In this document: one piece after another, positions 1,156-25,685 of the stretch
Layout: the number at the start of each line of letters is the position of its first letter
How positions within the stretch are numbered: position 1 is the stretch's first letter
Assembly: GCA_963924565.1 (NCBI GenBank)
Contig: OZ004612.1
Coordinates: 7,626,001-7,690,000 of the forward strand
Direction: 5' to 3'
Length of the DNA stretch: 64,000 nucleotides
DNA from: Ascidiella aspersa
Lineage: Eukaryota
Translations under genes and position numbers: made by a program
Notes under the pieces: generated by a model
Databases searched by the model: none
Told to the model about the DNA's origin: nothing
The model's input: the letters and a program-made list of their open reading frames with translations, nothing else

Positions 1156-1516
1156 ACCAGACATTCGCTCTGCGGTTGATTCTTCTACTAGAAATGCTAC
1201 AATGCAACGCAAGATCACTTTCCTTATTGCAACCGATATGTGCTGTTGGATGCCCATTTGCATTATGACTTTCCTAAGTATGGGCGGAGTGGTCATGCCC
1301 TCCTTCGCTTACGCCTTTTCCGCCGTTATCCTGTTGCCAATTAACAGCGCTTTAAATCCAATAATTTACTCCGATACCTTACCGATTGCTTTGGGTTTTT
1401 GCCGAGCACAATTATCCAAGTTTCGTATGAACACTAAACCCGTTGTTTCTGATGAGCGATCTCAATCGACAAAAGATGAAAATTTGCATTCCCATAAAAC
1501 GACTTCAGGAGTTTAG
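1156..1516 (+). pseudogene. Orphan 3' fragment (ICL3-TM6-TM7-C tail) of a type B LDLa-GPCR gene
   Basis: Nearly identical to 25325-25685 (offset 24169). The upstream sequence to 1155 instead matches the type A downstream spacer ending at 12237, so this is a deletion junction. No splice acceptor or upstream exons. Confidence 0.9.
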
Positions 1517-3434: not shown

Positions 3435-6400
3435 ATGCTCGATTTTCTTTATCCAATTATCTGCTTCCTGGTAATCTCAACTAAATTCAAAACTGTTTTC
3501 GGTGAGTAGATTTTTGTTGGTCCATGATTGGCTTTTCAGCTACTAGTCTATTTAAGCCCAGCCAATATAGCAACATCATAATTGCTGTCGTGTATAATAA
3601 TTGGTTAATGTTAAAAATAAGTTTTAAAGTTTATACTTGTATATTACAAATTCCAGTTGAGGGCCACTACTTGGCGATCCGAAGGCGTGATTCCTCGTGT
3701 CGGGCGGAGGATGGATTTTTCCTCTGCGACAATTTGCAGTGCGTGCAAAGACAGCATGTCCTCGACTCCAGAATCGACTGCGCTGATGGGAGTGACCAGC
3801 GCTCACGTATGCCACATATTATTATCATAGCAAGACTTGATATACACTGAGCAGTGTAGACTATTGATTTTACCATGAATCCAACACAAGTCGAAAAGCT
3901 TTAAAAATTAATTATATATGTCCACCAGGAAAGAGCCCAGGATTTTCGTTTAGGGGAGCCGGGAAATTTTTCAGGAATGACATCACAAAGTTAAATTTTG
4001 TGAGGCCCGCGAATCGTTTTAAATTTTCGGCAAGAACTCAAATTATCTTCCACATTTCATCCTTTTTAACACCATTGTCTTGTGCTATTGCTAATTAACT
4101 GTCATTAAACCTAAATATCTTATTTAAAATTGGCCAGCTTGCCTGTTTAAAAATGAAAGATTTTGTCTAAGTAAGTTGTGTCATACATGCAACCTATACA
4201 CACGTTTTGCAGCTGAGGCGCATACAACGTTTGAATATTTAAAATTCTTGCTTAACTGGGTGGATATACTGATCTTTTGAACACTTTTTTATGGTTTTAA
4301 AATCAAGAAAAAAACAATGATTATTGGTGCCTTTGTCGCAAATTACAGTCGTAACATTTGCAACGTTTTCCGGATTCGTGGCACTTTCTGAGCTAGAAAA
4401 CATTTCTGTGGGCGCCCATACCACTCTATCACTATATATTTATAAATGCTGCTAAAAGTTAGTGTGTGTATCTACAAGTAAATCAGCGCAGGTGTGCCAC
4501 CAGCAAACGAAAAGAAATACTGTTAACAGCTTATTGCAGATACATTAAATAGGCCTATATTGATCATTTTAAAACGTTTTTGTTTCTTAGGTTTGTTGTT
4601 GCGGCTCACAGACGTAATCCAAATATGTCACAGGGTTCTCAGTAAGACTTGAGTTTGTCCCCCTGTAATAGTGCTAACCCCTGGGTGTACTAAGAAATGA
4701 GAAAACATAGCATTTAATTTTAATAATGTTTAATTTTCAAACTTCCTTTGGGAAACCGTAGATAAAAATGTGCCCTTAATGTGTTTGGATGCCTCAACTC
4801 AATTAATGAAGTTGTGCGCATAGAAACGCATGGTCCGCTTTAACTCAAGGCGACGAATTTACCTTCCAGCAATAAATTGCACGGACGACGAATTTCCTTG
4901 CCGATCGAGTTTCCGTTGCGTTCCGAGGCAGTTTGCGGTGGACGGATGTGTTCGTAAAAGAAACGTGATACTCGGGTGCAGAGAAGATAAAGGTTAGATA
5001 CGTCGCATACGACATAAGCTTTTAAACATATTTTTTTAACTGGAGGTTTGCAATATTAGTTGCTTTCTCATGTTTTCTTTAAGTCGTGAGGGCAAGGCGT
5101 AGTGAAATAAATGCTGAACTTCATTTTTACATATCCAAAAATCATAACTTTTGTGATATTGCCTTCATAAATTGGTGCCGCAGAATTCACTTGCCGCAAG
5201 ACTCGCCGCTGCATCCCGAGGTGGATGGTGATGGACGGAGAGAGGGATTGCGACACTTTGTCCCACAACGATTCAAGTGACGAGGAGCGCGGGTTCGAAT
5301 CCTGCACGAGCTCGGAGGTGCGCTGCCATCTTCCAGTCGGAAGTAGCTTAAAGAAGGCGCGCTGCATTCCGCGGGCGTGGGTCCGCGATAACATTACCGA
5401 TTGTCCGGGAACGGGAAGTGACGAAGTGGCGCCGTTGAGCTCCTGTAATAACGCAACCGAGTTTCGCTGCAAAGATAGCGGCGGATGCGTGCTGCGGTAT
5501 AGGGTAAGAGACGGATACTCGGATTGTGGCGACTCTTCCGACGAGCTTGAGCAAATTGCATGCAACAGAGACGAGTTTCATTGCCTCGATAGCGGAAGAT
5601 GCATTCCTGATACCTGGATTGGAAACAAAGTAAGCGACTGTCCAGACGGGAGCGATGAAAACGTGATTAGGCAACCAACAAACTGTTCGGCAAACCAGTA
5701 CTTATGCGCCTCATCGCGTCGATGTATTCCTCTTGAGTATTTATGCGACGGAATCGACAACTGTGGGGATTGTAGCGACGAAATCGAGAGTTGCAAAGAA
5801 CAAGGTTCGAAGATGTTTCGCTGCCCGAACCAACCAAGCACTTGTCTGTCTTGGCAGTATTCCTGTGACGCGTTAACTGACTGCCCGAATGGCGCCGACG
5901 ATATTACTTGGATGCCAGGCTTCAAGTGCCAAAAACTAGTTTTAAACTCGCCTACCGGCAAGAAATACTGCTCGGTGCCTCAATGGGCCTTACACGATCA
6001 GTTGCCTTGGTGCGACGACGGATCTGATATTTGCTTCGATGACAGAGGCGAGTTTCTGTGCTCAATGTGCTTGGACGGCAAGACCATCATAGCCAAGAGG
6101 CAGTTGTGTGATGGGATAATCGACTGTCCAGACCTTTCCGACGAGTGCCTATGCTCGAATGGTTTTAATACTATTGTCCTTACTGAAGTCTGCTCAAACG
6201 TGTGTTACAATACGGACCTACAGGGTGCTGCGTGTCGCAACTGCAGCGTTGGGCATTTCAAGTGCGATTCAAACTGCTTGGAAATAAATAAATTTTGCGA
6301 TGGCGTGGTAGATTGCCCAACATCCAAATCAGACGAGTTGTATTGCGCTGAAAATCAAAAACTTGTCAATGCAAAAAGTTCGAAGAACTTCGTTTGTGAC

Positions 6401-9400
6401 CTGATTACTCCCTTACATCGTACGTTGGCTGATATTCTTGGATTCACCTCATTCGCTGAAGGAGCGTTTGTGGAGAACGCCGTCGGGTAAATTAAATTTT
6501 CACATTGAGACACCTAAACTGAGAATATAGTTTAAATTGTACACAAACATCAAACTAAAGACAAAACTTTGTAGGCCTAAACCTACAGTCAGTTTGTTTC
6601 GATTTTATTATGATATATATGTTTCACTCCTATATTCCAGTCAAGCCATTTTGCCCTAATGAAACAGTAAATTAAGTTTTCTAAGTTAAGTCATTGGGTT
6701 AAGTCATAACAACACTGATGGAAACACAATAAAATAAAAAACAAGGGAAGATTGCGTTAGTTGAAAGAAAACTCTGAGTGCAAACGTAGCAGAAATGCGT
6801 CCACATTTTCGGCTTTTTAAGTATTTGATCTTTAGAAAGAATTTGTTTTTACCATCACTGTAGATGCGACGGAAAAGTGGAATGTCTTTATTTTGAAGAC
6901 GAATGCTCCCCTCGGGCAAATTGTAGCACAAGGCTCAAGGTTTGCGACAGCATTCCGATGAAAAAAGTTAGTATGTTACCAACCAAACTGTTCAACTTTG
7001 TTTTGTTAATTTACTGAGCATTATTTTTCCTAACAAGATACTGCATAGTAAACACACATTAAATACAAAGTGAAAGAACAGTATGTAATGAATATGCTGT
7101 TGCTGCCAGGCATACAATTGAACAAATGTATAGAAATGCGTTTAATAAATTAAAATTAAAAATTATTCTTAACGATAACTATCAGTTTTACATACTGCCA
7201 ACTATCACATCAACTTTAAGTGAAATATTAAATCAGGCGTTACAAATCCAACCCTGCTGCTACGCTTTCTTTACCGCCAGATAGTAATGCCCACTCTATG
7301 GACGAAGTTGTACAACGCGACAGGCAAGGAAATGAATCGTTTGTGCGGCGGTTTCCAGGAATACGTGATTGGATCTTCGATTTGCAACGGTGTTCAGGAA
7401 TGTAGCGAAAAGGAAGACGAGATTGATTGCGATCGTTTCTACTGCGACGCGGGAAAAGTGCCGTGGATCTCAGGTGAAAGCACATAAAAGCACACGACAC
7501 GAAAGGGAATTACGTTCCATTTTAGTTGGATTACAAAAGTTCCAGCTTCACTGTTGGCTGTTGATTAGCAATACCTGCCCCATGCAAGGTCATTAGGTTA
7601 CCCCGGGTCATTGTCCTCACCTGGTCTTCAGGTTACCCCAGGTCATTGACCTCATCTGTTCTTCAGGAAGTGCAAATCCACCGCGAGAAATCGCAAATGC
7701 CAATATATCCACATATTTCGAGTATTTCAAACCCAAAGGCGAAAACTCAGATTGTATTCAACTTAGGGTATTTGGGGTCACACTGAACAAACTCTTGGCA
7801 CAAAATGGATTGTAACAGACCGACATAAAATGAGAAACACAACACACACTAGACACAGATAAATAAATATTTATTTAGGACCAAGGCCAAAGATTAGTAT
7901 TCCTTGGTTGGAACGTTGCAATGGAGAGTTCGACTGCAAGGACAAAACGGACGAAATGAACTGCAACAAATCCACACATTTCTATTGCAAAAATAGAGAG
8001 CCTCTGTTTGTTGATCGCAAAAAGGTACGAGTATCACAACAAACGGCCATAGGTTGGTGGCATTGTGTTTATATTTCGCAAATTTATAGTTAATACTTTC
8101 AACAAACAATTTTTAACTAAAACCGTCATCGCCTTTTTATAAATAAAATAATTGAATTTATGAATTGCTGTTCATCAATATTTATAACTATACTAAATGC
8201 TGCGAGCCCTTTCGATAGGAAAGAACCACGTCGCAGAGATAGCGTCACGAAATTACGTCATAACCATAACACTACAAAGTTACATAAAAACGTAAAACGC
8301 CATAAAGATGTAACCTTAAGTGCTCCAGACAGTTCGTTTAAGTCTTAGGTTGGTGAGGTGTTACTTTCAAAGCCAAAGCTACATTATATATAAGCGCACA
8401 ACCTAAAAGACCTCAGAGTCGACTTTATTAAAAACAATTACACTATAACGCACCTTTGAGAGGATCGCCCTTTAACAAAACGTTACAAAAGATAAATGTG
8501 TTAACGCCGGACTTAATCGTGATTTTGGTTTCATGGCGCATCAAGCCTTTTAACATGTAGCTGAAACGCGAAATTTGGTCCGGGGCCAAAACTTATCCGG
8601 TCGGATCAATTTTGGCGTTGGAACAGCCGCTAAAACCGGTCCGGCTAGGCCTAAACTGGATCCCCTAACGCTAACCCTAACCTTAGCCAGACCTGTTTTA
8701 GCGGCTGTTCCAACGCCAAAATCGATCCGACCCGACCAGTTTGGCGCTTGATTACGACCAAAATCGATCCGACCGGACCAATTTCGGCGTGACAAAGCCA
8801 TATATCCCATAAAGAGATGCGATGCTACCCATGCTCTTGCGTGGATCCACGCATCAGCAAACCTGCGCCTATATGTGAATTGTTTGACCGAATATGTTCT
8901 ATCGCATTTTACTCTGTGCGTTTGCACATTTTTACCGTATATTCTTACTCTGACCTGATGATGCACTATTGTACAAAAGCTCATTAACACTAAATACAAA
9001 TTTTCAAAAGTGCCATTTGTTTTCAGTTTTAACATATATTTGTTATCAATTCCTGCAAAGCAATAAAGGCTATTATATCTTTCATCTTTCAGGTTGCCTA
9101 CAACTTCATTTACATCGGTGAAACAAACACCTTTAAGCTAAAACAATGACAAACCCAAACTCTGTTAGTTGATGTTTTTTTTAATTTTCTTAGGTTCTTG
9201 ACGGGAAGATCGATTGCACGGACTCATCCGACGAATGTCCGGAGGACTTTGCCGATAAGAGCGCCGTTTCCTCCAAGACCGAGATGATCAAGTCGCCCGT
9301 CCTCCGTGGCTTCGTTTGGCTCATGGCTATTTTAGCATTCTTCGGAAATGTCGCCGTGATCTTCAAGACGGTCAGGTTCATTTTCCATTCTCGAAAACGG

Positions 9401-10498
9401 AAGGCATCGTCTATTTCGATTATTAACAACATCTTTGTTCTTAACCTCGCCTTTGCCGATTTACTGATGGGCTGTTGCCTTTTCGGCTTGGGCGCCAAGT
9501 CGGCTGAATTTTCGGGAAACTATTGCTTGGAAGACTTGGTCTGGCGAGCGAGTTCTTCTTGCAGTGCGCTGGGAGTGAGCATAGTTTTGTCAAGCGAGGC
9601 ATCCGTCTTCACACTTATCCTTCTCACGTCTTATCGCCTCTACGGAGTCCTGTTGCCCTTCAAAAGTCGTCAGCTGAGAGTTAGGGTGGCTGTTGGGTAT
9701 CTTGCAGCTATTTGGGCAGTTGCTTTGTTCATTGCTCTCATGCCCTTGAGCGATATTTTATCAACGTATATGGTGACAGACATGCTGATTGCCAAAAGCC
9801 CATACTTTAAACGAGGAACGGTGAAACTTTACGAACTGGAGCAATTTGCATTGCGCTTAAACGCACTTCAGCCTGGAAATGAGACTTCTAATTTACCGCT
9901 GGACTGGGGCGGATTGGTTCAGTTCCTGTCGAAACACTTTCCTAATCAAACTACTGATGTTTTAGGCTTTCACGGTTATTACAGCGCTAACGGCGTCTGT
10001 ATACCTAAGATTTATCGCTTGTCAGGTGACGAGTCAGGTTTCAACATTTACTCCGCTGTGACAATCACGTTTAGCTTCGTTTCTTTGCTATATATTCTAG
10101 TAGCTTATGTCATGATATACCGAAGATCTGCACACAAACCAGACATTGGTTCAGCTTCGGCTTCTGCACCTAGAAATGCTAAAATACAACGCAAGATCAC
10201 TTTCCTTATTGCAACCGATATGTGCTGTTGGATGCCCATCTGTATTATGACTTTTCTAAGTATGGGCGGAATGGTCATGCCCTCCTTCGCTTACGCCTTT
10301 TCCGCCGTTATCCTGTTGCCAATTAACAGCGCTTTAAATCCAATAATTTACTCCGATACATTACCAATCGCTTTAGGTTTTTGTCGAACGCATCTTTCAA
10401 TGTTCCGCACCAAGACTAAACCCGTTTTTTCTGAGCAGCGATCTCAATCGACAAAAGAAGGCAACTTGCCTTCCCCTTACACGACTTCAGGACTATAG
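3435..10498 (+). CDS. LDLa-repeat GPCR copy A1 (RXFP/GRL101-like 7TM, no LRRs), 8 coding exons, 1129 aa, intact
   Basis: Exons 3435-3501 (signal peptide MLDFLYPIICFLVIST), 3657-3806, 4870-4992, 5184-6486, 6864-6966, 7281-7473, 7879-8024, 9194-10498. All introns are GT-AG with matching phases (1,1,1,2,0,1,0), total 3390 nt. LDLa motifs DCxDxSDE. 7TM motifs LRGFVW..GN, NLAFADLLMG, TDMCCWMP, LPINSALNPIIY. Confidence 0.9.
7587..7652 (+). promoter_or_regulatory. Cluster of nuclear-receptor half-sites (DR2, two DR4, two IR1) in intron 6 of A1, within a 35-bp tandem duplication
   Basis: AGGTCA-tt-AGGTTA-cccc-GGGTCA-t-TGTCCT ... AGGTTA-cccc-AGGTCA-t-TGACCT. Motif match only, function untested. Confidence 0.4.
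8562..8794. mobile_element. Palindromic MITE-like element with telomere-like TAACCC core in intron 7 of A1
   Basis: About 50-bp inverted arms 8599-8649 and 8681-8732 around CTAACGCTAACCCTAACC, with degenerate terminal inverted ends. Absent at the homologous site of B1 (about 24050). Confidence 0.7.
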
Positions 10499-10949
10499 AT
10501 TTTTATACTCGCTGTGCAGTATAGAAGTTTGTTCAAGTTTTGAACTTTTGACTACACGTTAAGGTTGTGATGCTGTAGCATCTTTTGTTTAATGCAAGTT
10601 CAAATGTTGTGTTTATTATTCCAGTAGAAAAAAACATTTTTGTTATTTTTTGTCTTATGTGAAATTCTGTTTGTAGACTGCACACTCATAGGGTTGTCTT
10701 GCGACTATTTATTTCATTTTTTTTTCTGTTGTTCTAAATTTAATTTATGAGATTATGAGGGTATAGGCTATAAACATTCCGAAACAGACAACGGACTGAG
10801 CGATCGTTTTATTGTTTGTAAATAGCACGGTTATGTATTCGATTTTAAAGCGTTTTTGTATTAAAATAATAAATTGTATATATGAAGTATTTAATGTGCA
10901 GCTAATGCAATAACATATAGCGAGCACACCATAACGTCATATGTTAAAC

Positions 10950-11793
10950 CAGGGTTCGGCAACCTTCGGCCCGCGGATATAATTCATCCGGCCCGCCGCC
11001 TGTTTGACAAATTAGCCACGAGTCCATTTCACATACTTTTTGACTATTTTAGCTACCTAAGTTCGAAAAATTTTCGTGCTTTGCGCGAATGATCTTTTTA
11101 CATCCGGTTTGTACGTTTTTATGCTGTCTTTTTAACTAAATCAGCGATACTTTATAGTTGCGCCGTGCAAGACTGCCTATAGTGCGTCGCGGAAAAGTGG
11201 AAAACGATATTGATCATATAATAGATAAAAGATTCATTCTTTTATTTGCAAACGTTTCGGCAATTTCTTTTGCTTACTGCACTTATGATGGCAAAAGAAA
11301 TTGCCGAAACGTTTGCAGATATTGATCATATTTTTTAACCATTTTTTTTATTTTTTACTTTCAGCAATGTGATAAAACTTGCAAGAAAATGAACAGAAAT
11401 GCCGGTTTACCAAAAAAAATCGCGCTTGGTTGGCTCGCCAGGTGCGCCCGAACTTAAAAAACGTTAACCAACTCTTACTTGGATTAACTCTAAATGTTAT
11501 CGCGTTCACCTTAAAGTAGTCTTATTACACTTTTCATTAATAATATGGATAACGTGTGAACTCGAATTTTATACCAAACAAACGCTTTTTTTCACGCTTT
11601 GCGGCAACACTTTACTGGCTCTTTAAACGTAATTATACACGTCTGAAAGTGCAAAAAAGATCCGAGGCCCGCCTGATTCACTGCTGTTCTAACATTTTAA
11701 TAATACAATTCTTAGTTAACATTTTGTGCGGTCCACAGAGCCCTTTCTGAGTTTGATTTTGACCCACGACTAGAAAAAGGTTGCCGACCCCTG
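10950..11793. mobile_element. hAT-like (Charlie-type) non-autonomous MITE family 1, 844 bp
   Basis: TIRs CAGGGTTCGGCAACCT / AGGTTGCCGACCCCTG (15 of 16 match). 8-bp flanks TGTTAAAC / TATTGAAC (TATTAAAC in the other copies). No transposase ORF. Confidence 0.85.
11247..11317. repeat. Perfect 27-bp inverted repeat with 17-nt loop nested in the MITE
   Basis: TGCAAACGTTTCGGCAATTTCTTTTGC (11247-11273) and its exact reverse complement (11291-11317), inside GATATTGATCATAT direct repeats. Also at 35470-35540 and 60257-60327. Confidence 0.9.
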
Positions 11794-13559
11794 TATTGAA
11801 CCTTACTGGGACAAACAAATGACAGACATAGGTTTGCAGTTTTTAATTGCACTGTTTTGCCTGTACGGTTGAATGGTCAAACGGTAAAGCTTCCGGCTTA
11901 CATCAAGCAATTAACGGAAGTAAGAAAAACCTTTAATGGCTAATAGCAACTTGACAGAAGAATTTAAATTAAACTAGCATCATGTTTTAGTGAAACTCGG
12001 ACAGAATTTCTATGTTTTTTTAGCAAACAGAAGATAACTGGAAATAAGCCACGTCGACATGGCACCCAATCTGCATTTTTGCTTATGTTCCAATGCAAAC
12101 ATCTTTCTCCCTCCGTCATCTAAAATATTTTTTGCCAGCTTTAAACAATATAAAGGCGTTTCTTTGACTTTGTGTAAATCGATAAAATCTTTGTGATGTA
12201 TCTTTTGTATTGAAAGTAACACATTTCCAACCTTACCCCTCAAGGAACAAACAAAAGTCGAACAAAATATTTTTTTACTTTATTTCAGCTGCATATTAGG
12301 AGTTCCACCGAAAACATTATATACATGCATGTTATCCCAGTTATTACTCCAGTATCCATCCGCGGTGTTTTTTTTACTTGTTACGATTGTTAGCACGAGT
12401 TGTGTAGGCCTGGATTAGGCCAACCTTTAGTCTATATGTGTATTTAGTTTGCCTTGGTTAAAATACTGTAAGTAAACTTATGTTTTTTAATATTTTAGTA
12501 AAAAAATCTTACCATGATTTACACCCAAATCAAAAATAGTGTTAAATACAAAGAATATTGCCATCCTTACCTCTTAATGACGTTTCGTAATATATTCGCA
12601 AATAACGTCAAAACTTATATCAACAAGCCACAGGGAACACACATAGCCTATATTAGGTATGTGCACAGTCGTCACAGGCAACTTTATGAGTATACACCAG
12701 ACCTGCACAGCATACGGCCCACGACGTAATAACACTTTTCGGTTTACTACTTCTATTCTAAATAAGTTCGGATTCTAAGTAAGTTCGGGCGCTCACACTT
12801 AATGGCTGAAAAAAGGCGAATAGTTTAATTACGCGTATAAAATTGCAGTGACTGTAAGTGTATAATAATTTAGTGATAGGCCAAATTCGAGGTGCGCAAA
12901 CTCTTCAGCTCACAGACGCATTACAGATTCTGTACTTTGACAAAAAGTAGCATAAGATGCATTAAATTGTCGAGAATTTTTGCCACGCCAAAGAGTTTGC
13001 ACAAAACACAATAGGCGGATCCTGGAGGCAATCAGACAATGTGGCTATTGCTATTTAAGCATTACTTTTTAAACCTCTGTTCGTTAGTAATATGTTTTTG
13101 TCTGTTTTAAGAAAATCTATTTAGCTGAAAAGCGCTATGCACAATATGTCATGTCGCATCGCGTGACTCATCAACTCTAAAAAACGCAATTCCTGTTGAA
13201 TTAGACTGCGAATGCCAGCAATATGCAAATATATTTTATGTGCCAAATACGCCACGTATCCCTTTAAATTAAAAGACAAAACGCCAAATTTTCACGGTTC
13301 GCCCGATTAGACTAGATTTTAGCCTCATATAATGGCGTGCGAGTTGCTGGACACGCTACGCACGTTATTTCAAAATTAACTAAGAATAAAACAATGCCTA
13401 ATACCTAAATGGTAAATAGTTGCATTCATTTAAATAATAAATAATGGCGTCTAACTTGACATAAAACAAAACCCGCCATTGCATATATTGGAGGAAATCA
13501 AAATTCTATCAAATGTAACGAAAAAGTAATTTAGCACAGCTTGCAACAATAATCTAAAC

Positions 13560-13958
13560 CAGTGCTCTTCAACCGGTGTGCACGGTGCACCCTATAAGGG
13601 TCCACCAAAATATGCATGTGGTGCACCACAACGAAAAGGTATACAAGGGGGCATCACAAACTTTTAATGAAGCATTAATATTTAAGATTTTTAATGACAA
13701 AACAGTCGTTAAACAGTCTCTTTGCTATTTTGTTAAGTTTGTTTGAATGGTGTTTTAAGACATGCAATATAATATTCGCAAGCAGCCTGCAGCCATAAAC
13801 TCTCACCGACAGTGTGTAAAACTTCGGCAGTTCCGCTCGGTTTAATTGACATGATGATATTTTTTTGACCTCAGTTTACCTTTTAAGTAAACAGGGTGCA
13901 TGACTTCTCTAGATCAACCTTAAGGGTTCACCAAACCAAAAAAGGTTAAAGAGCACTA
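13560..13958. mobile_element. hAT-like MITE family 2 (399 bp) inserted at the stop codon of pseudogene C1
   Basis: TIRs CAGTGCTCTTCAACC / GGTTAAAGAGCACTA. Perfect 8-bp TSD ATCTAAAC at 13552-13559 and 13959-13966. Confidence 0.9.
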
Positions 13959-13960
13959 AT

Positions 13961-16900
13961 CTAAACTGCCGAGGTCGTGTTAGGGGAAGGAAAGTTGCCT
14001 TCTTTTGTCGATTGAGATCGCTCATCAGAAACAACGGGTTTAATGTTCATTCAAAACTTGGATAATTGTTCTCGGCAAAAACCCAAAGCCGTCGGTAAGG
14101 TATCGGAGTAAATTATTGGATTCAAAGCGCTGTTAATTGGCAACAGGATAACGGCGGAAAAGGCGTAAGCGAAGGAGGGCATGACCACTCCGCCCAAACT
14201 TAGAAAAGTCATAATGCAGATAGGCATCCAACAGCACATATCGGTTGCAATAAGGAAAGTGATCTTGCCTTGTATTGTAGCATTTCTAGCAGCAGAATCA
14301 GCCGCAGAACGAATGTCTGGTGTCTGTGCAGATCTTCGGTATATAATTACATATGCTACTAAAATATATAGCAAAGAAACGAAGCTAAACGTGATTGTCA
14401 CAGCGGAGTAAATGTTGAAACCTGACTCGTCACCTGACAAGCGATAAATCTTAGGTATACAGACGCCGTTAGCGCTGTAATAACCGTGAAAGCCTAAAAC
14501 ATCAGTGGTTTGATTAGGAAAGTGTTTCGATAGAAACTGAACCAATCCGCCCCAGTCCAGCGGTAAATTAGAAGTCGCATTTCCTGGCTGAAGTGCGTTT
14601 AAGCGCAATGCAAATTGCTTCAGTTCGTAAAGTTTCACCGTTCCTTGTTTGAAGTAAGGGCTTTTGGCAATCAGCATGTCTGTCACCATATACGTTGATA
14701 AATTATCGTTTAAAGGCATGAGAGCAATGAACAAAGCAACTGCCCAAATAGCTGCAAGATACCCAACAGCCACCCTAACTCTCAACTGGCGACTTTTGAA
14801 GGGCCACAGGACTCCATAAAGGCGATTAGACGTTAGAAGGATAAGGCTGAAGACGGATGCCTCGCTTGACAAAACTATGCTCACTCCCAGCGCACTGCAA
14901 GAAGAAATCGCTCGCCAAACCAATAGTTTCCCGAAAACTCAGCCGGACTTGGCGCCCAAGCCGAAAAGGCAACAGCCCATCAGCAAATCGGCAAAGGCGA
15001 GGTTGAGAACAAGAATGTTGTTAGTAACCGAAATAGACGATGCCTCCCGTTTTCGAGAATGGCAAAACGATTTGGACATGTCAAATAACTTTTGCAACCA
15101 AACAAAAAAACATTGCTTCATCGCTTACAGAACTTGAGTTCAGCGCCCAATTTCTTAAATGGCGAACAATTGCGACAAAATGTCTTGGACAAGACAAGGT
15201 ATTGAAACATTTACCAGAAGTCCACGGAACCCTTCCGGCGTCGCAGTAAAAGTGATCGCATTCGATTTCGTCCTCGCTTTTGCTGCATTCCTGAACACCG
15301 TTGCAAATCGACGAACCCACCAATCGTCGAACGGTACTCCAGGAAACCCCGGAAATTTCGGTTCATTTCCAAGCCCGTAGCTTTGTATGACTTGGCCCAC
15401 ACAAGAGGCATTACTATCTGACGAAAAGAACTGTATTCTAAGGACAATGTCGATTGGCTGCCTGTGCATGAAATTGCAGTGTGTTCGCTTGATATTCCAA
15501 GACTTCACTTCGATTTCCTCTATACTTGTTGGGTCTGAGTAACCTAGTCACAAACTGACCAGCTTTATCCCGACTTTGCGCTACAACTTCTAACCGCCTG
15601 AGCGGTAGAAAACGCTCACAAGACATGTTGTGTTGTGCTGTGAGCATTCGCTGAAAAGCGCAGTTATTCTGGATTTGGGAATGCAAAATAAATCACGAAG
15701 TCTAACGACATACGCAGGTTGAAATATCGAGGCTATTTTGCCTAGTTTTGATGAAGTCCTGTCGGGCAGTCAATCTCCCTTGTAGAAACATACAGCATTA
15801 AGTATAATGGTAGAATCCGCTACGCTACGTAAATCTTTGGGTGACATTTAACATCAGCTAGTATGAACACTAAGTTTTCTCTAAAACTGGGCAATTTATT
15901 TATTAGAGTAAGTTAATTTTGTTATTGTTTGAATCCCATTAAAGGCTTATTAGATATTAACATATATTATTTTTTTGTGTATTCATAATTCAAAACAATT
16001 TGTTTAGGCGTACTTCAATGTTTTAGTCTTAATATTGGTTTTAGATGCATTTAAATATTTTTAATAAAAATAACCCGTTAGAAAACAAACCTTACTTTTT
16101 TCATTGGAATGCTGTCGCAAATGCTGAGCCTTGTGTTACAGTTTGCCCGCGGAGAGCATTCGTCATCAAAATAAAGACATTCCACTTTTCCCTCGCATCT
16201 ATAGATAAAAAAATATTTTCATAGTAAAAATGACAGTTAAAAAAACTTAAAATGTGTCTCAGTATTTGTGCGACTTAAACTGGTATCCCGCTATTAGGAA
16301 TTTTGTTTGTTAGGATTAAAATTACCCGACACCGTTGTCGACAAACGCTCCTTCAGTGAACGAAGCCAATTTGAGGATGTCGGCCAACGTACGATGTAAG
16401 GGAGTAATCGGGTCACAAACGAAGGTCTTCGGACTTTTTGCAACGACAAGTTTTTGATCTTTAGCGCAATACAACTCGTCTGATTTGGATGTCGGGCAAT
16501 CTACCACGCCATGGCAAAACTTATTTCTCGCCAAACAGTTTGAATCGCACTTGAAATGCCCGACGCTACAGTTACGACACACAGCACCCTGCAGGTCCGT
16601 ATTGGAACACAGGTTCGAGCAGACCTCAGTGACAGTTGTATTACAACCATTCGAGCATAGGCACTCGTCGGAAAGGTCTGGACAGTCAATTATCCCATCA
16701 CACAGCTGTCTCTTGGCTACGATGGTCTTACCGTCCAAGCACAGAGAGCACAGAAACTCGCCTCTGTCATCGAAGCAAATATCAGATCCGTCGTCGCACC
16801 AAGGCAACTGATCGTGTAAGGTCCATTGAGGCACTGAGCAGTATTTCTTGCCTGTGGGCGAGTTTAAAACTAGTTTTTGGCACTTGAAGCCTGGCATCCA

Positions 16901-17609
16901 AGTAATGTCGTCGGTGCCATTCGGGCAGTCAGATAACGCGTCACAGGAATACTGCCAAGACAGGCAAGTGCTTGGCTGGTTCGGGCAGCGAAACATCTTC
17001 GAACCTTGCTCTTTGCAACTCTCGATCTTGTCGCTACAATCTCCACAGTTGTCGATTCCGTCGCATAAATATTCAAGAGGAATACATCGACGCGACGAGG
17101 CGCATAAAAACTGGTTTGCCGAACAGGTTGTTGGTTGCATATTCACCTTTTCATCGCTCTCGTCTGGCCAATCGCTTACTTTGTTCCCCATCCAAGTATC
17201 AGGAATGCATCTTCCGCTATCGAGGCAATGAAACTCGTCTCTGTTGCATGCAAGTTGCTCAAGCTCGTCGGAAGAGTCGCAACAATCCGAGTATCCGTCT
17301 CTTACCCTATAACGCAGCACGCATCTGCCGCTATCTTTGTAGCGAAACTCACTTGCGGTATTACAGGAGCTCAACGGTGCCACTTCGTCACTTGCTGTTC
17401 CCAGACAATCAGTGATGTTATCGCAGACCCACGCCCGCGGGATGCAGCGCGCCTTCTTTAAGCTACCTCCGACTGGAAGATGGCAGCGCACTTCCGAGCT
17501 CGTGCAGGATTCGAACCCGCGCTCCTTGTCTCTCGGATCGCTGTGGGACAAAGTGTCGCAATCCCTCTCTCCGTCCATCACCATCCACCTCGGAATGCTG
17601 CGGCGAGTC
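13961..17609 (-). pseudogene. Inverted, 5'-truncated LDLa-GPCR pseudogene C1
   Basis: Retains exon 4 (16326-17609, truncated), exon 5 (16096-16198), exon 6 (15215-15417, 10-nt insertion) and part of exon 8 (13961 to about 15063). Exons 1-3, exon 7 and TM1 are missing. +1 and -13 indels in ECL1. CGA>TGA at 14051-14053. Several Cys codons lost. Confidence 0.92.
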
Positions 17610-17642
17610 ACTATACGATATGTAACACTATACGATATGTAA
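17609..17642. repeat. 17-bp tandem repeat (2 copies) at the inversion breakpoint
   Basis: CACTATACGATATGTAA x2. Three copies at 41778-41828 and a single copy in the unrearranged type A upstream region (about 2049). Confidence 0.85.
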
Positions 17643-19089
17643 ACTTATCAGACAGTTTTAAACACAAGTGTAAAATGAGACGTTATAAACAGCCAAACTA
17701 AGGAAGCTTTCGATAAGTGCATATCAATCTAGGAGTGTGGAAGATATGAAAGAATTTATCTATTAAAAGAACAAAGGCAATCAGTACTTACACTGCACAC
17801 AGAAAATATTTAGTAAATTCACTCATAAACGAGCGCATTCGACTCCGAAATATACAGAACGACGCTTGCTATTTTTAACGATTTTTACGTGGCCTTACAT
17901 AGCTTACATCGGCCAGATGTTGGTGGTTAATCTTTTGTGACATACGATAAGTAAATCGACTTGAAATCAGGCTTACAACACACGAAATAAGAACACAGAA
18001 AATTCTGGACATTTATCAAAACGCGGCCAAGAGTATGTTGGCAGCTTAAATGATGCACCCAGCCAGCCGCTGCATGTTTGGCGTGACCGCTGCCTAATCC
18101 TAACAAAACTTTCCGCAACCACTACAACAGTGACAAATCCTGCGATGTCTCATTGCAAAGTATAACACATAAAGGATAATAATAAAACGCAAAGTGGCAT
18201 CTGTTTCGACTTTTACAACATCATAATATCTTACCTCCCAAGACGGAGGAATCTGAATGACGATAATTATGTTTTTTATTTCAACTCCTAAAATAGGTCA
18301 TTTAACTTAATCAAGACCATTTATCATGATCATTTTTTAACTCAAATCGATAGTTGGGGCTGGTCCACACAAACTCAAATATAAGTGAACGGCACAGTGC
18401 TTTATATTGGTTAATTGTTGTTTTAATATAAAGTCTGTTTAAAATTGTGTATTGTAGAACGACCGCGGTCTAATAGGACGTTTATGTCAAAATGCCATAA
18501 GCTACAGTGGTGTTGATTTTTTACTTATATTTATTTCCTTCTGCTTTGCACGGGCGACTTCACAAGACTTTACTTTCTTTCACGTTCAGTTTATTAGAAG
18601 GACTTTGAATCAATTTTCGGACTATATTATATTTCATGATACAGACTTAAGATGACGCCAGTACAAGGAAGTCTTGCGTCGGGCCAATCAAAGTACGAGA
18701 TGAAAAAAAAGGCCGTTGAATGACCCTTCCTTAACATTTCGGTAAACACCCATAGATACGTGCAATTGCGCTTGGTGCAGCTAACCACTAACGTCACATT
18801 TTCTATGCTTCAACGTGCAAATCGAAACCACAAGTTTATGTTTCCAAAGTTGCCAGCTTATATTCAAACTTAGCCATATAGTGAGTAGCTTTAAACGATT
18901 TAGTTTTTTATACCTTATGCCGCAGCAAATTACGAAGAATAGGTTTTCGTTCATGAGTTTAGTTCAATTAAATATGGTTTCCTGTTTCAGGGTAAATACC
19001 AAGGTTAAAATAAATAATAATAACACCAATCAAAGTACAAGAAAAAACGATCAATATTTTAGCTTTCAGCAACAGGCCTATTATACAAC

Positions 19090-22000
19090 ATGCTCGATTT
19101 TCTTTATCCAATTATCTGCTTCTTGGTAATCTCAACTAAATTCAAAACTGTTTTCGGTAAGTAGATTTTTGTTGGCCCCTGATTTGCTTTTGAGCTACTT
19201 AGTCTATTTAAGCCCAGCCAATATAACAACACCATAATTGCTGTCGTGTATAATAATTGGTTAATGTTAAAAATAAGTTTTAAAGTTTATACTTGTATGT
19301 TACAAAGTTCCAGTTGAGAGCCACGACTTGGCGATACGAATACGTGATTCCTCGTGTCGGACGGAGGATGGATTTTTCCTGTGCGACAATTTGCAGTGCG
19401 TGCAAAGACAGGATGTCCTCGACACCACAATCGACTGCGCAGATGGGAGTGACCAGCGCTCAAGTATGCCACATATTATTATCTTCGCAAGACTTGATAT
19501 ACAATAAGCAGTTTAGACTTTTGATTTTACCATTCCAACACAAGCCGAAAAGCTTTAAAAATAAATTATATATGTCCACCAGAAAAGAGTCCAGGATTTC
19601 GTTTAGGGGAGCCGGGAAATTTTTCAGGAATGACGTCACAAAGTTACATTTTGTGAGGCCCGCGAAATGCTTTAAATTTCGGCAAGAACTCGAATTATCT
19701 TCCACATTCCATCCTTTTTAACACCATTGTCCTGCGCTATTGCTAATTAACTGTCATTAAACCAAAATATCTTATTTAAACTTGGCCAGCTTGCCTGTTT
19801 AAAACTGAAAGATTTTGTCTAAGTAAGTTGTGTCATACATGCAACCTACTCACGTTTTGCAGCTGAGGCACAAACAACGTTTGAATATTTAAAATTTTGT
19901 CTTAACTGGGTCGATACACTGATCCTTTGAACACTTTTTTATGGTTTTAAAATCAAGAAAAAAACAACGATTATTGATGCCTTTGTTGCAAATTACTTTC
20001 GTTACATTTGCAACGTTTTCAGCTTAGTGCAGATACATTAAATAGGCCTATATTGATCATGTTAAAACGATTTTGTTTCTTAAGTTTGTTGTTGCGGCTC
20101 ACAGACGTAATCCAAATATGTCACAGGGTTCTCAGTAAGACTTGAGTTTGTCACCCTGTAATAGTGCTAATCCCTGGGTGTACTAAGAAATGAGAAAACA
20201 TAGCATTAGTTTTTAATAATGTTTAATTTTCAAACTTCCTTTGGGAAACCGTAGAGTAAAATGTGCCCTTAATGGGTTTGGATGCCTCATTTCAAATCAT
20301 GAAGTTGTGCGCATAGAAACGCATGGTCCGCTTTAACTAAAGGCAACGAATTTACCTTCCAGCAATAAATTGCACGGACGACGAATTCCCTTGCCGATCG
20401 ACCTTCCGTTGCGTTCCGAGGCAGTTTGCGGTGGACGGATGTATCCATAAAAGAAACGTGATACTCGGGTGCAGAGAAGATAAAGGTTAGATATGTCGCA
20501 TACGACATGAGCTTTTAAACATATTTTCTTGATTGGAGGTTTGCAATATTAGTTGCTTTCTCATGTTTTCTTTAAGTCGTGAGGGCAAGGCGTAGTGAAG
20601 AAAATGTTGAACTACGTTTTTACATGTCCGAAAGTCATAACTTTTGTGATATTGCCTTCATAACTTGGTGCCGCAGAATTCACTTGCCGCAAGACTCGCC
20701 GCTGCATCCCGAGGTGGATGGTGATGGACGGAGAGAGGGATTGCGACACTTTGTCCCACAACGATTCAAGTGACGAGGAGCGCGGGTTCGAATCCTGTAC
20801 GAGCTCGGAGGTGCGCTGCCATCTTCCAGTCGAAAGTAGCTTAAAGAAGGCGCGCTGCATCCCGCGGGCGTGGGTCCGCGATAACATACCCGATTGTCCA
20901 GGAACGGGAAGTGACGAAGTGGCGCCGTTGAGCTCCTGTAATAATGTAACTGAGTTTCGCTGCAAATATAGCGGTAGATGCGTGCTGCGGTATAGGGTAA
21001 GAGACGGATATTCGGATTGTGGCGACTCTTCCGACGAGCTTGAACAACTTGCATGCAACAGAGACGAGTTTCATTGCCTCGATAGCGGAAGATGCATTCC
21101 CGATACCTGGATTGGGAACAAAGTAAGCGACTGTCCAGACGAGAGCGATGAAAAGGTGAATATGCAACCAACAACTTGTTCGGCAAACCAGTTTTTATGC
21201 GCCTCGTCGCGTCGATGTATTCCTCTTGAATATTTATGCGACGGAATCGACAACTGTGGAGATTGTAGCGACGAGATCGAGAGTTGCAAAGAGAAAGGTT
21301 CGAAAATGTTTCGCTGCCCGAACCAACCAAGCACTTGCCTGTCTTGGCAGTATTCCTGCGACGCGTTAACTGACTGCCCGAATGGCGCCGACGACATCAC
21401 GTGGATGCCAGGCTTTAAGTGTCAAAAACTAGTTTTAAACTCGCCCACCGGCAAGAAGTACTGCTCAGTGCCTCAATGGGCCTTACACGATCAGTTGCCT
21501 TGGTGCGACGACGGATCTGATATTTGCTTCGATGACAGGGGCGAGTTTCTGTGCTCAATGTGCTTGGACGGCAAGACCATCATAGCCAAGAGGCAGTTGT
21601 GTGATGGGATAATTGACTGTCCAGACCTTTCCGACGAGTGCCTCTGCTCGAATGGTTTTAATACGACTGTCCTTTCTGAGGTCTGCTCAAACGTGTGTTA
21701 CAATACTGACCTACAGGGTGCTGCGTGTCGCAACTGCAGCGTTGGGCATTTCAAGTGCGATTCAAACTGCTTGGAAATAAATAAATTTTGCGATGGCGTG
21801 GTAGATTGCCCGACATCCAAATCAGACGAGTTGTATTGCGCTGAAAATCAAAAACTTGTCAATGCAAAAAGTTTGAAGAACTTCGTTTGTGACCCGATTA
21901 CTCCTTTACATCGTACGTTGGCTGACATTTTTCGATTCGCCTCTTTCGCTGAAGAAGCGTTTGTGGAGAACGCTGTCGGGTAAATTAACTTTTCACATTA

Positions 22001-25000
22001 AGATACCTAAACTGAGAATATAGTTTAAATTGTACACATAGTATAGGATAAACATCAAACTAAAAACAAAACTTTGTAGCCTGAACCTAAAGTCAGTTTA
22101 TTTCGATTTTATTATGATATATATGTTTCATTTCTTGACTCCAGTCAAGCCATTTTGCCCTAATGAAACAGTAAATCAATTTACTTAAGTTAAGTCATTG
22201 ACTTAAGTCATAACAACACTGATGGAAACACACAAAAAAATGTAAAACAAGGGAAGATTGCGTTAGTTGAAAGAAAACAAACGTAGCAGAAATGCGTCCA
22301 CATTTTCGGCTTTTTAAGTATTTGATTTTAGAAAGAATTTGTTTTTACCATTACTGTAGATGCGACGGAAAAGTGGAATGTCTTTATTTTGAAGACGAAT
22401 GCTCCCCTCGGGCAAATTGTAGCACAAGGCTCAAGGTTTGCGACAGCATTCCAATGAAAAAAGTTAGTATGTGAATACCCAAGTGTTCAATTTTGTTTTG
22501 TTAATTTACTGAGAATTATTTTTCCTGACAAGATACTGCATAGTAAACATACATTAAATTCAAAGTGAAAGACCGGTATATAATGAATATGCTGTTGCTG
22601 CAAAAAATATTTCGGCAAAAATATTTCTTAAAAAAACATGTGTATATATATATATATAAATAAATTGTATTGGAATACGTTTAATAAATTAAAATGAAAA
22701 ATTATTCTCGACGATAACTATCAGTTTTACCTGCTGCCAACTATCACATCAACTTTAAGTGAAATGTTAAATCAGGCGTTACAAATCTAACCCTGCTGCT
22801 ACGCTTTCTTTACCGCCAGATAGTAATTCCCACTTTATGGACGAAGTTGTACAACGCGACAGGCAAGGAAATGAACCGCATGTGTGGCGGTTTTCTGGAA
22901 TACGTGCTGGGATCTTCAATTTGCAACGGTGTTCAGGAATGTAGCGAAAAGGAAGACGAGATCGATTGCGATCGTTTCTACTGCGACGCGGGAAAAGTAC
23001 TGTGGATCTCAGGTAAAAACGCACAAATGCACACGACTTGTTATTCCTACAATTTTGTACACCGAGCGAAAATTTCCACATTTTGAGTATTTCAAACTCA
23101 AAGGAGAGAACTCTAATTGATTGAACTAATTTATTTATTATATGACAATTAATTTGTCTCATTTCTAAACAGTTTATTTCAAAGTGCCAAATGACGTGGG
23201 GTGCCTTTTCGTTTTTATCAATATTAATTAACCTAAACTAATGTTGAAAGTATAGGCTATTTGAGGTAGGCTACACTGAACAAACTTTTGGGTTTGCACA
23301 AAACGGATTGTAACAGACCGACATAAAATGAGAAACACAACACACACTAGATACAGATATTTAAATATTTATTTAGGATCAAGACCAAAGATTAGTATTC
23401 CTTGGTTGGAACGTTGCAACGGAGAGTTCGATTGCAAGGACAAAACGGACGAAATGAACTGCAACAAATCCACCCATTTCTATTGCAAAAACGGAGAACC
23501 TTTGTTTGTTGACCGCGAAAAGGTACGAGCATTATAACGAACGGCCATGTATGTTGGTGGCATTGTGTTAACATTTTACAACGTTATAGATTATACCTTT
23601 AACTAGAACAAACAAATCTTAACTAGAACCGTCATCGCCTTTTTAACAATAAAATAATCTATTTTACAAATGGCTGTTCATCGATATTTATAACTATACT
23701 AAATGCTGTGAGCCCTTTCAATAGGAAAGAACCAAGTCGCAGAGATAGCGTCACGAAATTACGTCATAACCATAACACCACAAAGTTACATCAAAATATA
23801 ACGCAATAAAAATGTAACCTTAAGTGCTGCGCATAGTTCGTTTAAGTTTTAGGTTGGAGAGGTGTTAGAGCAAAAGCTACATTGCATATAGTTGCACAAC
23901 CTAAAAGACCTCAGAGTCGCCATAATTAAAAAAATATTTACACTCTTATGCATCATTAAACTCGCCCTTTAACAACACGTTATAAAAGATAAATGCATTT
24001 AACGCCAGACTTAATCGTGATTTTGGTTTCAAGGCGCATCAAGCTATTTAAATATATCCAACCAATAGATGCGCTGATACCTATGCTCCTGCTTGGTCAA
24101 ACCATATCAGCAAACCTGCGCCAATATGTGAATTGTTGGACCGTATAACTTTCATCGCCTTTTACCCTATGCGTTTGCGCCTTTAATTTGTTTGTTTTTC
24201 ACCGTTTTCTTCTTGCTCTGACCTGATAATGCACTGTTATGCAAAAGCTCGTTAACATTAAAATTCCAGTTTTTACATATAGATGTTATCAATATTTACA
24301 AGGGCGAAACAAACACCGTTATGCTAGAACAATGACAAACACAAACTCTGCTATAGTTGAAGTTTACATAATTTTATTAGGTCCTTGACGGGAAGATGGA
24401 TTGCACGGACTCATCCGACGAATGTCCGGAGGACTTTGCAGACAAGAGTGCTGTTTCCTCCAAAACCGAAATGATCAAGTCGCCTGTCCTCCGCGGATTC
24501 GTTTGGCTTATGGCTATTTTGGCTTTCTTCGGAAATGGCGCCGTAATCTTCAAGACAACCAGATTCATTCGCCAATCTCGAAAACGGGAGGCATCGTCTG
24601 TTTCGATTATTAACAACATCTTTGTTCTTAATCTCGCCTTTGCCGATTTGCTGATGGGCTGTTGCCTTTTCGGCTTGGGCGCCAAGTCGGCTGAGTTTTC
24701 GGGAAACTATTGCTTGGAAGACTTGGTCTGGCGAGCGAGTTCTTCCTGCAGTGCGCTGGGAGTGAGCATAGTTTTGTCAAGCGAGGCATCCGTCTTCACA
24801 CTTATCCTTCTCACGTCTTATCGCCTCTATGGAGTCCTGTGGCCCTTTAAAAGCCGTCAGTTGAGAGTTAGGGTGGCTGCTGGGTGTCTTGCAGCCATTT
24901 GGGCAGCTGCTTTGTTCATTGCTCTCATGCCCTTGAGCGATATTTTATCAACGTATATGGTGACAGACATGCTGATTGCCAAAAGCCCTTACTTCAAAAA

Positions 25001-25685
25001 AGGAACAGTGAAACTTTACGAACTGGAGCAGTTTGCATTGCGCTTAAACGCACTTCAGCCAGGAAATGAGACTTCTAATTTACCGCTGGACTGGGGCGGA
25101 TTAGTTCGGTTTCTATCGAAAAACTTTCCTAATCAAACCACTGATGTTTTAGGCTTTCACGGTTATTATAGCGCTAACGGCGTCTGTATACCTAAGATCT
25201 ATCGCTTGTCAGGCGACGAGTCAGGTTTCAACATTTTCTCAGCTGTGACAATCACGTTTAGCTTCGTTTCTTTGCTATATATTTTAGTAGCATATGTCAT
25301 TATATACCGAAGATCTACACAGACACCAGACATTCGCTCTGCGGCTGATTCTTCTACTAGAAATGCTACAATGCAACGCAAGATCACTTTCCTTATTGCA
25401 ACCGATATGTGCTGTTGGATGCCCATTTGCATTATGACTTTCCTAAGTATGGGCGGAGTGGTCATGCCCTCCTTCGCTTACGCCTTTTCCGCCGTTATCC
25501 TGTTGCCAATTAACAGCGCTTTAAATCCAATAATTTACTCCGATACCTTACCGATTGCTTTGGGTTTTTGCCGAGCACAATTATCCAAGTTTCGTATGAA
25601 CACTCAACCCGTTGTTTCTGATGAGCGATCTCAATCGACAAAAGATGAAAATTTGCATTCCCATAAAACGACTTCAGGAGTTTAG
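19090..25685 (+). CDS. LDLa-repeat GPCR copy B1, 8 coding exons, 1129 aa, intact
   Basis: Exons 19090-19156, 19314-19463, 20363-20485, 20677-21979, 22360-22462, 22820-23012, 23377-23522, 24381-25685. Same lengths, phases and GT-AG sites as A1. Distinct C tail (DENLHSHKTTSGV) and 3' flank. Confidence 0.9.

What the first reader, a model, noticed from the sequence alone, without database searches (positions are those of the whole stretch)
9385..21979. Each repeat unit carries an inverted pseudogene forming kb-scale inverted repeats with both neighbours (possible built-in hairpin-RNA regulator or conversion donor)
Seen: C lies tail-to-tail with A (about 1.1-kb 7TM arms, 9385-10498 vs 13961-15063, 3.5-kb spacer). 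It also lies head-to-head with B (about 1.28-kb LDLa arms, 16326-17609 vs 20693-21979, 3.1-kb spacer). The A-C part recurs in all three units. Known: inverted pseudogenes can produce endo-siRNAs and A-to-I edited dsRNA that act on parent genes. Inference: plus-strand read-through from A would be antisense to C and so complementary to every family mRNA, which could buffer dosage as the array expands. C may also serve as a sequence donor.
Basis: partly seen in the sequence, partly recalled or inferred. Interest (0 to 1): 0.7.

Follow-up and report, generated by a model that had tools for sequence, protein, structure and literature searches.

The report
Inverted receptor pseudogene swapping exon patches
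The backward-facing copies in this cluster of sea-squirt-type receptor genes are broken pieces of one intact backward-facing gene at the end of the cluster, likely carried along by tandem duplication and likely kept similar to their neighbours by gene conversion in the two long exons; a small RNA sample showed no read of the antisense RNA that a regulator would need.

Summary
The inverted repeats are real (91-92% identical, 1.1 and 1.3 kb, spacers 3.5 and 3.1 kb). C is a truncated copy of gene D, an intact minus-strand LDLa-7TM receptor gene at the far end of the array, 56 kb beyond the window. C matches D through introns 4-6 and the 3' flank. All five C copies share one 5' breakpoint (4-nt microhomology) and one 1-kb deletion, so C's orientation is inherited from D through a head-to-tail duplication. 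The arms are only the two 1.3-kb exons. There D differs from gene A at 89 of 569 synonymous sites, against 68 of 141 in short exons (p=5e-15), and no intron aligns: gene conversion across orientation, confined to long exons. C decays near-neutrally, receives tracts, and likely gave one to intact gene P9. In one shallow RNA run, 17 reads fell on the C stretch; none was 99% identical to C1 and none over C lay in the antisense direction. This is a weak test, and no small-RNA data were available. Verdict: a duplication by-product inside a converting gene family. The donor idea is partly supported, the hairpin regulator is not.

The parts
3435..10498 (+). Gene A1 (P3): 8 exons, 1129 aa, signal-peptide-like start, many LDLa repeats, class A 7TM, no LRR
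   Evidence: Exons 3435-3501, 3657-3806, 4870-4992, 5184-6486, 6864-6966, 7281-7473, 7879-8024, 9194-10498, all GT-AG, open frame; Pfam per exon
9381..10501 (+). Left arm of the tail-to-tail repeat: part of A1 exon 8
   Evidence: 91.2% to 15066-13958
10868..10873 (+). AATAAA 370 nt after A1's stop; candidate polyadenylation signal (use inferred). Further plus-strand AATAAA at 13385, 13436, 15687, 16063, 16170
10499..13960 (.). A-C spacer, 95-98% alike in all five units, homologous in patches (67-85%) to the spacer between P11 and D; holds high-copy repeats
   Evidence: depth peaks
13560..13957 (.). About 390-nt high-copy insertion just behind C's stop codon, absent from D; D's 3' flank resumes after it
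13961..15066 (-). C1 remnant of exon 8 (7TM): first 187 nt missing, +1 insertion and 13-nt deletion shared by all five C copies, one stop near the end
14363..14530 (-). Tract in C1 identical to plus genes P7/P8/P9 over 168 nt (C as recipient, inferred)
   Evidence: window places computed from exon positions 736-903
15060..15073 (-). Junction of the 1-kb internal deletion (intron 6 joined to mid exon 8; exon 7 lost), the same in 5 of 5 C copies
15067..16325 (-). C1 middle: intron 6 stub, exon 6 (15215-15417, +10 nt), intron 5, exon 5 (16096-16198), intron 4; D-type, its introns unlike any plus gene
   Evidence: 89% to D; intron 5 has long matches only to 5 C copies and D in the genome
16326..17609 (-). 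C1 remnant of exon 4 (LDLa repeats), first 16 nt and splice acceptor missing, frame open but several cysteines lost
16671..16821 (-). 151-nt tract of C1 identical to intact gene P9 (C as donor, inferred)
   Evidence: window places computed from exon positions 805-955
17606..17642 (.). Duplication breakpoint: 4-nt microhomology between D exon 4 and plus-gene upstream DNA, followed by a 17-nt unit present twice (three times in C2-C4)
19090..25685 (+). Gene B1 (P4), intact; its upstream DNA (17626-19089) begins at C's breakpoint; exon 4 (20677-21979) is the right arm of the head-to-head repeat
38183..41778 (-). C2, same two junctions, further frameshifts
63350..64000 (-). C3, exon 8 end; continues beyond the window (L005)
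1156..1516 (+). Fragment F: 3' end of a B1-type exon 8 joined directly to A-C-type spacer; likely the scar of a deletion of about 13 kb that removed one C and most of a B gene

Best explanation
C is a truncated pseudogene copy of the intact inverted array-end gene D, likely made once by a head-to-tail duplication that ended inside D's exon 4 and then likely multiplied passively with the repeat unit, and its arms likely stay 91-92% like the plus-strand genes because short-tract gene conversion acts on the two 1.3-kb exons. Steps. Shown: C is colinear with D, introns included; all five C copies share both breakpoints; long exons are far more alike across orientation than short exons and introns; C accumulates disabling changes. 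Inferred: the duplication ran from upstream of a plus gene to D exon 4 and was joined at a 4-nt microhomology; unequal crossing-over multiplied the unit; long exons are the only stretches with enough unbroken identity for ectopic repair once introns have diverged; C takes part in this exchange as recipient and now and then as donor; it has no selected RNA function.
For: C1 aligns with D over 2567 nt at 87% (exon 4 to intron 6) and 1126 nt at 92% (exon 8), and the spacer matches D's 3' flank. D has an open 1106-codon frame over exons 2-8 with canonical splice sites. C's intron 5 has long matches only to 5 C copies and D in the genome search. Same 5' junction and same deletion junction in 5 of 5 C. 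Synonymous differences D vs A1: 68/141 in five short exons, 89/569 in two long exons, Fisher p=5e-15; controls A1-B1 24/139 vs 102/566 (p=0.90) and A1-P11 21/137 vs 82/567 (p=0.79). 0 of 6 A1-D intron pairs align. In the dispersed old paralog on C7 the long exons are no more conserved (64, 66% aa) than the short ones (52-76%). Trees: D+C one clade in exons 5+6 (100/100), unresolved in exon 4 (50/46), rejected in exon 8 (AU p=0.004). Alleles found only in C: 39 synonymous, 104 non-synonymous, ratio 0.76, neutrality not rejected (p=0.13), 10 cysteine codons hit; plus-gene alleles 0.27. RNA: 17 reads laid at >=86% identity, none 99% like C1, none in the plus-strand direction over C, none in C's middle; 14 of 14 RNA alleles checked are carried by other family copies, 5 of them by no C.
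Against: The RNA test is very weak: about 6 in 100 of one run from an unknown tissue, about 8 fragments; the upper 95% bound for an antisense share is about 0.3, and strandedness is inferred from a few reads. One search shows a trace of plus-direction RNA depth (0.56) at 12200-12538, past A's first AATAAA, compatible with read-through. C-type sequence is present in 3 of 3 DNA runs laid. C-only alleles in exon 8 give a ratio of 0.52, below 1. No rise of GC3 in the converted exons (0.57 and 0.50 vs 0.55). The run test flagged only 5 cross-orientation pairs at p<=0.002 (2 in exon 4, 3 in exon 8, of 72 each), and the D-P8 and C4-P8 tracts are not significant by it (p=0.19, 0.47). Directions of transfer rest on parsimony in one haplotype.
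Confidence: 0.8

Rival explanations
1. C is a functional hairpin or antisense RNA source: read-through from A folds back on A's exon 8 or runs on into B's exon 4, is diced or edited, and damps the whole family as the array grows.
For: The arms would pair over 1028 of 1118 and 1216 of 1284 nt (about -1870 and -2360 kcal/mol), with 13 and 17 paired runs of at least 21 nt; 12-37% of C1's 21-mers match a given family member perfectly. C scales with the array and is present in 3 of 3 DNA runs. One trace of plus-direction RNA in the spacer. Precedents exist in soybean and Drosophila.
Against: Loops of 3.1-3.5 kb with three AATAAA between A and C and three more inside C; arms 91-92% rather than near-perfect; no constraint on arms relative to intron; no plus-strand read over C; the intact pair P11-D forms an equally stable inverted repeat, so the geometry needs no selection; one unit likely lost its C.
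Confidence: 0.06
2. C is kept by selection as a store of old alleles that diversifies the ligand-binding LDLa repeats and the loops of the active receptors by conversion.
For: P9 carries C1-type alleles over 151 nt, giving two amino-acid changes; C shares a run of exon 8 alleles (positions 944-989) with P1/B1 where D has the other type; exons 4 and 8 are mosaics.
Against: One likely donor event among 12 plus-class copies, not significant after correction; D and plus genes donate too; C's own changes destroy cysteines and frames, and its shared exon 8 frameshifts are in 0 of 12 plus copies.
Confidence: 0.08
3. No conversion: long exons are alike through strong purifying selection or recent common origin.
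For: No GC3 rise; few pairs pass the run test.
Against: The contrast is at synonymous sites, is absent in plus-plus controls and in the C7 paralog, and exon trees conflict.
Confidence: 0.03
4. Part of the repetition is an assembly artefact (two haplotypes laid in tandem), so C is less multiplied than it seems.
For: P5, P7 and P8 are about 98-99.8% alike in the long exons. Raw DNA run X8 gives depth of about 50-60 on the long exons and about 12 on the C/D intron, against about 6 expected per copy: roughly half the assembly's 18 and a third of its 6 copies.
Against: Five C copies with distinct indels cannot come from two haplotypes of one copy; X8 shows alleles fixed differently from the window, so it is likely another individual; the share of reads with C's +1 insertion (8 of 44) does not differ from 5 of 18 (p=0.18).
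Confidence: 0.03

Closest known systems
Ascidian LDLRR-GPCRs (Kamesh et al. 2008, PMC2396169; passages read)
   Same: LDL-A repeats joined to a relaxin-receptor-like 7TM, no LRR; lineage-specific expansion. Best hits are Clavelina, Ciona, Styela and Phallusia proteins with the same two Pfam families, 43-44% identity at best.
   Different: Here a young tandem array of 11 plus genes, one intact inverted gene and five inverted pseudogenes; the passages read describe no such array or conversion.
SIGLEC16P to SIGLEC11 conversion (PMC5701461; passages read)
   Same: Inverted neighbours exchanging sequence repeatedly; a non-functional copy as donor to a working gene.
   Different: There one pair 9 kb apart and a roughly 3-kb genomic region spanning several exons; here many copies and short tracts confined to two long exons.
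Regional conversion in protocadherin variable exons (PMC1852091; passages read) and BMP8A/B (PMC2720389; passages read)
   Same: Part of a gene homogenised at synonymous sites while the rest diverges; BMP8A/B are inverted.
   Different: Those show raised GC in converted parts (not significant at third positions for BMP8); no rise seen here.
Soybean GmIRCHS (PMC3406792; passages read)
   Same: Tail-to-tail inverted repeat of a pseudogene inside a gene family that it could silence.
   Different: GmIRCHS is a perfect repeat with a 78-bp gap, an upstream promoter, and detected dsRNA and siRNAs; here 91-92% arms, loops over 3 kb, no RNA evidence.
Drosophila hpRNAs Nmy, Tmy, mTmy-C (10.1101/2021.08.05.454923; passages read)
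   Same: Inverted repeats derived from an expanding family; mTmy-C is itself a locally multiplied unit.
   Different: Those are near-perfect repeats within one transcript with abundant siRNAs; here both arms are not known to share a transcript.

Membership tests
LDLRR-GPCR (ascidian) | Tandem LDL-A repeats at the N-terminus | tested here: met
   PF00057 in 5 of the 6 N-terminal exons scanned, 8 stretches in exon 4
LDLRR-GPCR (ascidian) | 7TM region like relaxin/INSL3 receptors | tested here: met
   PF00001; best solved structure by sequence is relaxin receptor 1, E=4e-28
LDLRR-GPCR (ascidian) | No leucine-rich repeats | tested here: met
   No LRR family at E<=0.1 in 7 of 7 exons scanned, exons 2-8; exon 1 is 22 codons and was not scanned
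Duplicated (unprocessed) pseudogene | Keeps the parent's introns and flank | tested here: met
Duplicated (unprocessed) pseudogene | Disabling lesions and relaxed selection | tested here: met
Concerted evolution by interlocus gene conversion | Regional homogenisation at synonymous sites and conflicting trees | tested here: met
Concerted evolution by interlocus gene conversion | Identifiable tracts | tested here: inconclusive
   5 cross-orientation pairs at p<=0.002 of 144 pair-exon tests; the best is borderline after correction
Concerted evolution by interlocus gene conversion | Raised GC at third positions (common, not required) | tested here: not met
Concerted evolution by interlocus gene conversion | Paralogs group by species across related species | not testable with these tools
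   No relatives of this genome are held
hpRNA / pseudogene endo-siRNA locus | Long inverted repeat able to pair | tested here: met
hpRNA / pseudogene endo-siRNA locus | One transcript covering both arms, or antisense transcription | tested here: inconclusive
   No plus-strand read over C among 17 laid; too shallow
hpRNA / pseudogene endo-siRNA locus | 21-23-nt small RNAs or A-to-I editing from the arms | not testable with these tools
   No small-RNA run listed; no DNA run known to be of the same individual as the RNA
hpRNA / pseudogene endo-siRNA locus | Targets de-repressed on loss | not testable with these tools
   Needs an experiment

The most novel reading that the evidence does not exclude
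A duplication accident placed an antisense-oriented pseudogene inside the amplifying unit of a receptor array; gene conversion keeps its arms matched to the family, and read-through turns it into a self-scaling RNAi or editing brake on family dosage in an ascidian.
Probability: 0.06. Interest if true: 0.65.

Novelty: new member of a known kind. Interest (0 to 1): 0.3.

Why it matters
As best explained, it is a clean natural case of gene conversion limited by exon length between oppositely oriented paralogs, with a pseudogene acting as recipient and likely as donor, in a little-studied ascidian orphan receptor family. It also warns that exon-4 and exon-8 trees misdate these genes. If the hairpin reading were true, it would be a self-scaling dosage control and a pseudogene-siRNA system in a tunicate; my three searches on this family or on ascidian endo-siRNA listed no such report, but the library is partial.

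Tried and rejected
Processed (retro) origin of C: rejected, it keeps D's introns. Origin by local inversion of A or B: rejected, C's introns and exon 6 are D-type. Independent origins of the C copies: rejected, shared junctions. Editing: RNA differences show no A>G excess (A>G 5, T>C 5, G>A 7, C>T 2 places) and match paralog alleles; without DNA of the same individual this is no test. Copy number from contig depths (C-type about 136 vs D-type 190-220 in X1; about 208 vs 64-74 in X2): the tool says such depths are no copy number, kept as a lead only. GC3 test: flat. Earlier findings of the scan: nothing by place or by sequence. My first exon coordinates for P10 exon 7 and P2 exon 4 were 7 and 9 nt too long, which gave false stops; one search shows P10 intact and P2's exon 4 ending 9 nt earlier (its whole frame was not re-translated). 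The slip adds a few wrong columns to the P2 and P10 rows and does not touch the D, C, A1, B1 or P11 counts.
Full report
Setting. The window is G000:C6:7626001-7690000 in a 308-Mb genome. I fetched 40 kb before and 90 kb after it and three other loci and mapped gene A's exons and introns on them. Places outside the window are given in window numbering (add 7626000 for C6). Gene A has 8 exons and 1129 codons: a hydrophobic start, LDLa repeats and a class A 7TM, with no LRR hit. The nearest solved sequence is relaxin receptor 1; the named homologs at the top of 48 hits are ascidian proteins with the same two domains. This fits the LDLRR-GPCRs of Ciona (PMC2396169, passages). That the organism is an ascidian is inferred from these hits.

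The observation. Both inverted repeats are there: 91.2% over 1122 nt and 92.0% over 1294 nt, with spacers of 3462 and 3083 nt. The array runs from about -17.4 kb to +126 kb and holds 11 plus-strand genes (P1-P11; A1=P3, B1=P4), one fragment F, five C copies and one further minus-strand gene D at 120207 to about 126400 (L010-L011); a close copy lies on C8 and an older paralog on C7. Five of the 11 plus genes are followed by a C.

What C is. D is complete: canonical splice sites, an open frame over exons 2-8, and a 67-nt candidate exon 1 visible in the printed upstream sequence. C1 aligns with D from exon 4 into intron 6 (87% over 2567 nt) and over exon 8 (92%), and the distal spacer matches D's 3' flank. 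C's intron 5 has long matches only to the five C copies (95-100%) and D (83-90%), plus two short 70% repeats elsewhere. All five C copies begin 16 nt into exon 4 at a 4-nt microhomology with plus-gene upstream DNA, and all five share a 1-kb deletion from intron 6 into exon 8, a +1 insertion and a 13-nt deletion. The simplest history (inferred) is one head-to-tail duplication from upstream of a plus gene to D's exon 4, then expansion by unequal crossing-over. No inversion is needed. The tail-to-tail geometry copies the convergent pair P11-D; the head-to-head geometry is the duplication junction.

Why the arms are so alike. D and A1 share no alignable intron (0 of 6) and differ by 11-29% in the five short exons but 6.0 and 6.6% in exons 4 and 8. 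At synonymous sites the contrast is 68/141 against 89/569 (p=5e-15); two plus-plus controls show none, and the C7 paralog is no more conserved in long exons than in short. D and C form a 100/100 clade in exons 5+6, are unresolved in exon 4, and are rejected as a clade in exon 8 (AU p=0.004; 18 rows, fragment F and the C7 paralog left out). This is gene conversion across orientation, restricted to the long exons and continuing after C split from D. The reason for the restriction (a need for long unbroken identity) is inferred from general knowledge, not tested. GC3 is not raised.

C as recipient and donor. C1 exon 8 positions 736-903 are identical to P7, P8 and P9 and lack alleles of C2-C5 (p=0.0004-0.002): recipient. 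P9, an intact gene at 84-92 kb, is identical to C1 over exon 4 positions 805-955 and again from 1053, with alleles otherwise typical of the C clade (906, 917, 1055), giving Met to Leu and Ile to Val: likely donor, p=0.005 before correction for 72 pairs, so not established. P8 carries 12 D-type alleles at exon 8 positions 1197-1223 where its near-twin P7 differs, one found only in D and P8; the run test does not flag it (p=0.19). C's shared exon 8 frameshifts are in none of the 12 plus-class copies.

Selection on C. Alleles found only in C: 39 synonymous, 104 non-synonymous, ratio 0.76 (exon 4 0.99, exon 8 0.52), not different from neutral (p=0.13); plus-gene alleles give 0.27. Among C copies the arms differ as much as or more than intron 5 in 10 of 10 pairs for exon 4 and 9 of 10 for exon 8. 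Incoming tracts inflate the arm figures, so this shows no constraint rather than proving its absence.

RNA. One raw RNA run (X9; 7.8 million records, about 6 in 100 of the run) was laid twice. At 95% identity on 10505-20670, 144 reads were laid, 91% running on into unlike sequence (repeats); the bins 14912-16606 were empty. At 86% on 13960-17960, 17 reads were laid, none 99% alike; over C all had the first mate on +, the family-sense direction if the library is stranded as the few reads at B's exon 1 and A's 3' end suggest; the only opposite-direction depth lay upstream of B. All 14 RNA alleles checked occur in other copies, 5 in no C. Against my reading: a trace of plus-direction depth at 12200-12538, beyond A's first AATAAA, and with about 8 fragments an antisense share up to 0.3 is not excluded. 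If transcribed, the arms would pair very stably, but so would P11 with D.

Other individuals. C-type intron sequence (4 differences in 388 and 490 nt) is in contigs of X1 and X2, and 8 of 44 raw DNA reads of X8 keep C's +1 insertion. Depths hint at fewer copies in these samples than in the assembly, a lead only. Within the window, fragment F likely marks a deletion that removed one C.

Comparison. The case works like SIGLEC16P-SIGLEC11 and regional conversion in protocadherins and BMP8A/B. Demonstrated hairpin loci such as GmIRCHS and Nmy/Tmy have perfect or near-perfect arms, and GmIRCHS a 78-bp gap, with RNA evidence; this locus meets only the pairing criterion. All six papers were read as passages found by term, not whole; some searches were search listings. 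Mouse oocyte pseudogene siRNAs are recalled, not read.

Verdict. Real feature; a by-product pseudogene in a converting receptor array (0.8). Hairpin regulator 0.06. New member of a known kind; interest 0.3.

Noticed in passing
window 52654-52803 (gene A3/P7 exon 2): A single-base change makes a stop codon early in exon 2 of an otherwise intact copy.
   Followed up: yes
window 45031-46304 (gene B2/P6 exon 4): A 29-nt deletion shifts the frame; this plus-strand copy is likely a pseudogene.
   Followed up: yes
window 19090-25685 (B1) and L003 (P1): B1 is a chimera: exons 2-5 of the common type, exons 6-8 and 3' flank close to the array's first gene P1 (1.1% apart in exon 8). P1's exons 2-3 are a third old type.
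   Followed up: partly
window 8560-8760, 32810-32970, 48115-48420, 57640-57800: Imperfect palindromic element with a few TAACCC units in intron 7 of A-type genes, variable in length among copies.
   Followed up: no
window 7588-7667, 31812-31891, 56640-56719: 35-nt minisatellite in intron 6 of A-type genes.
   Followed up: no
window 10844-11860 and 13556-13957: High-copy elements in the A-C spacer; they take most RNA and DNA reads laid there.
   Followed up: no
L015 (G000:C8, about 7100800-7108100, minus): Intact dispersed copy of the plus-gene type on another large contig, 96% in exon 8.
   Followed up: partly
L017-L018 (C7) and L019-L020 (C9): Older paralogs with the same exon layout, about 65% and 46% aa; C9 seems to hold at least two in tandem.
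   Followed up: partly
window 15607-15806: A 198-nt deletion in the C/D-type intron 5 is seen in X1 and X8 but was not noticed in the assembly's copies.
   Followed up: no
window 16326-17609: C1 lacks the 32-nt deletion that C2-C5 share in exon 4 and keeps an open frame; it may have branched earlier or been overwritten by conversion.
   Followed up: no
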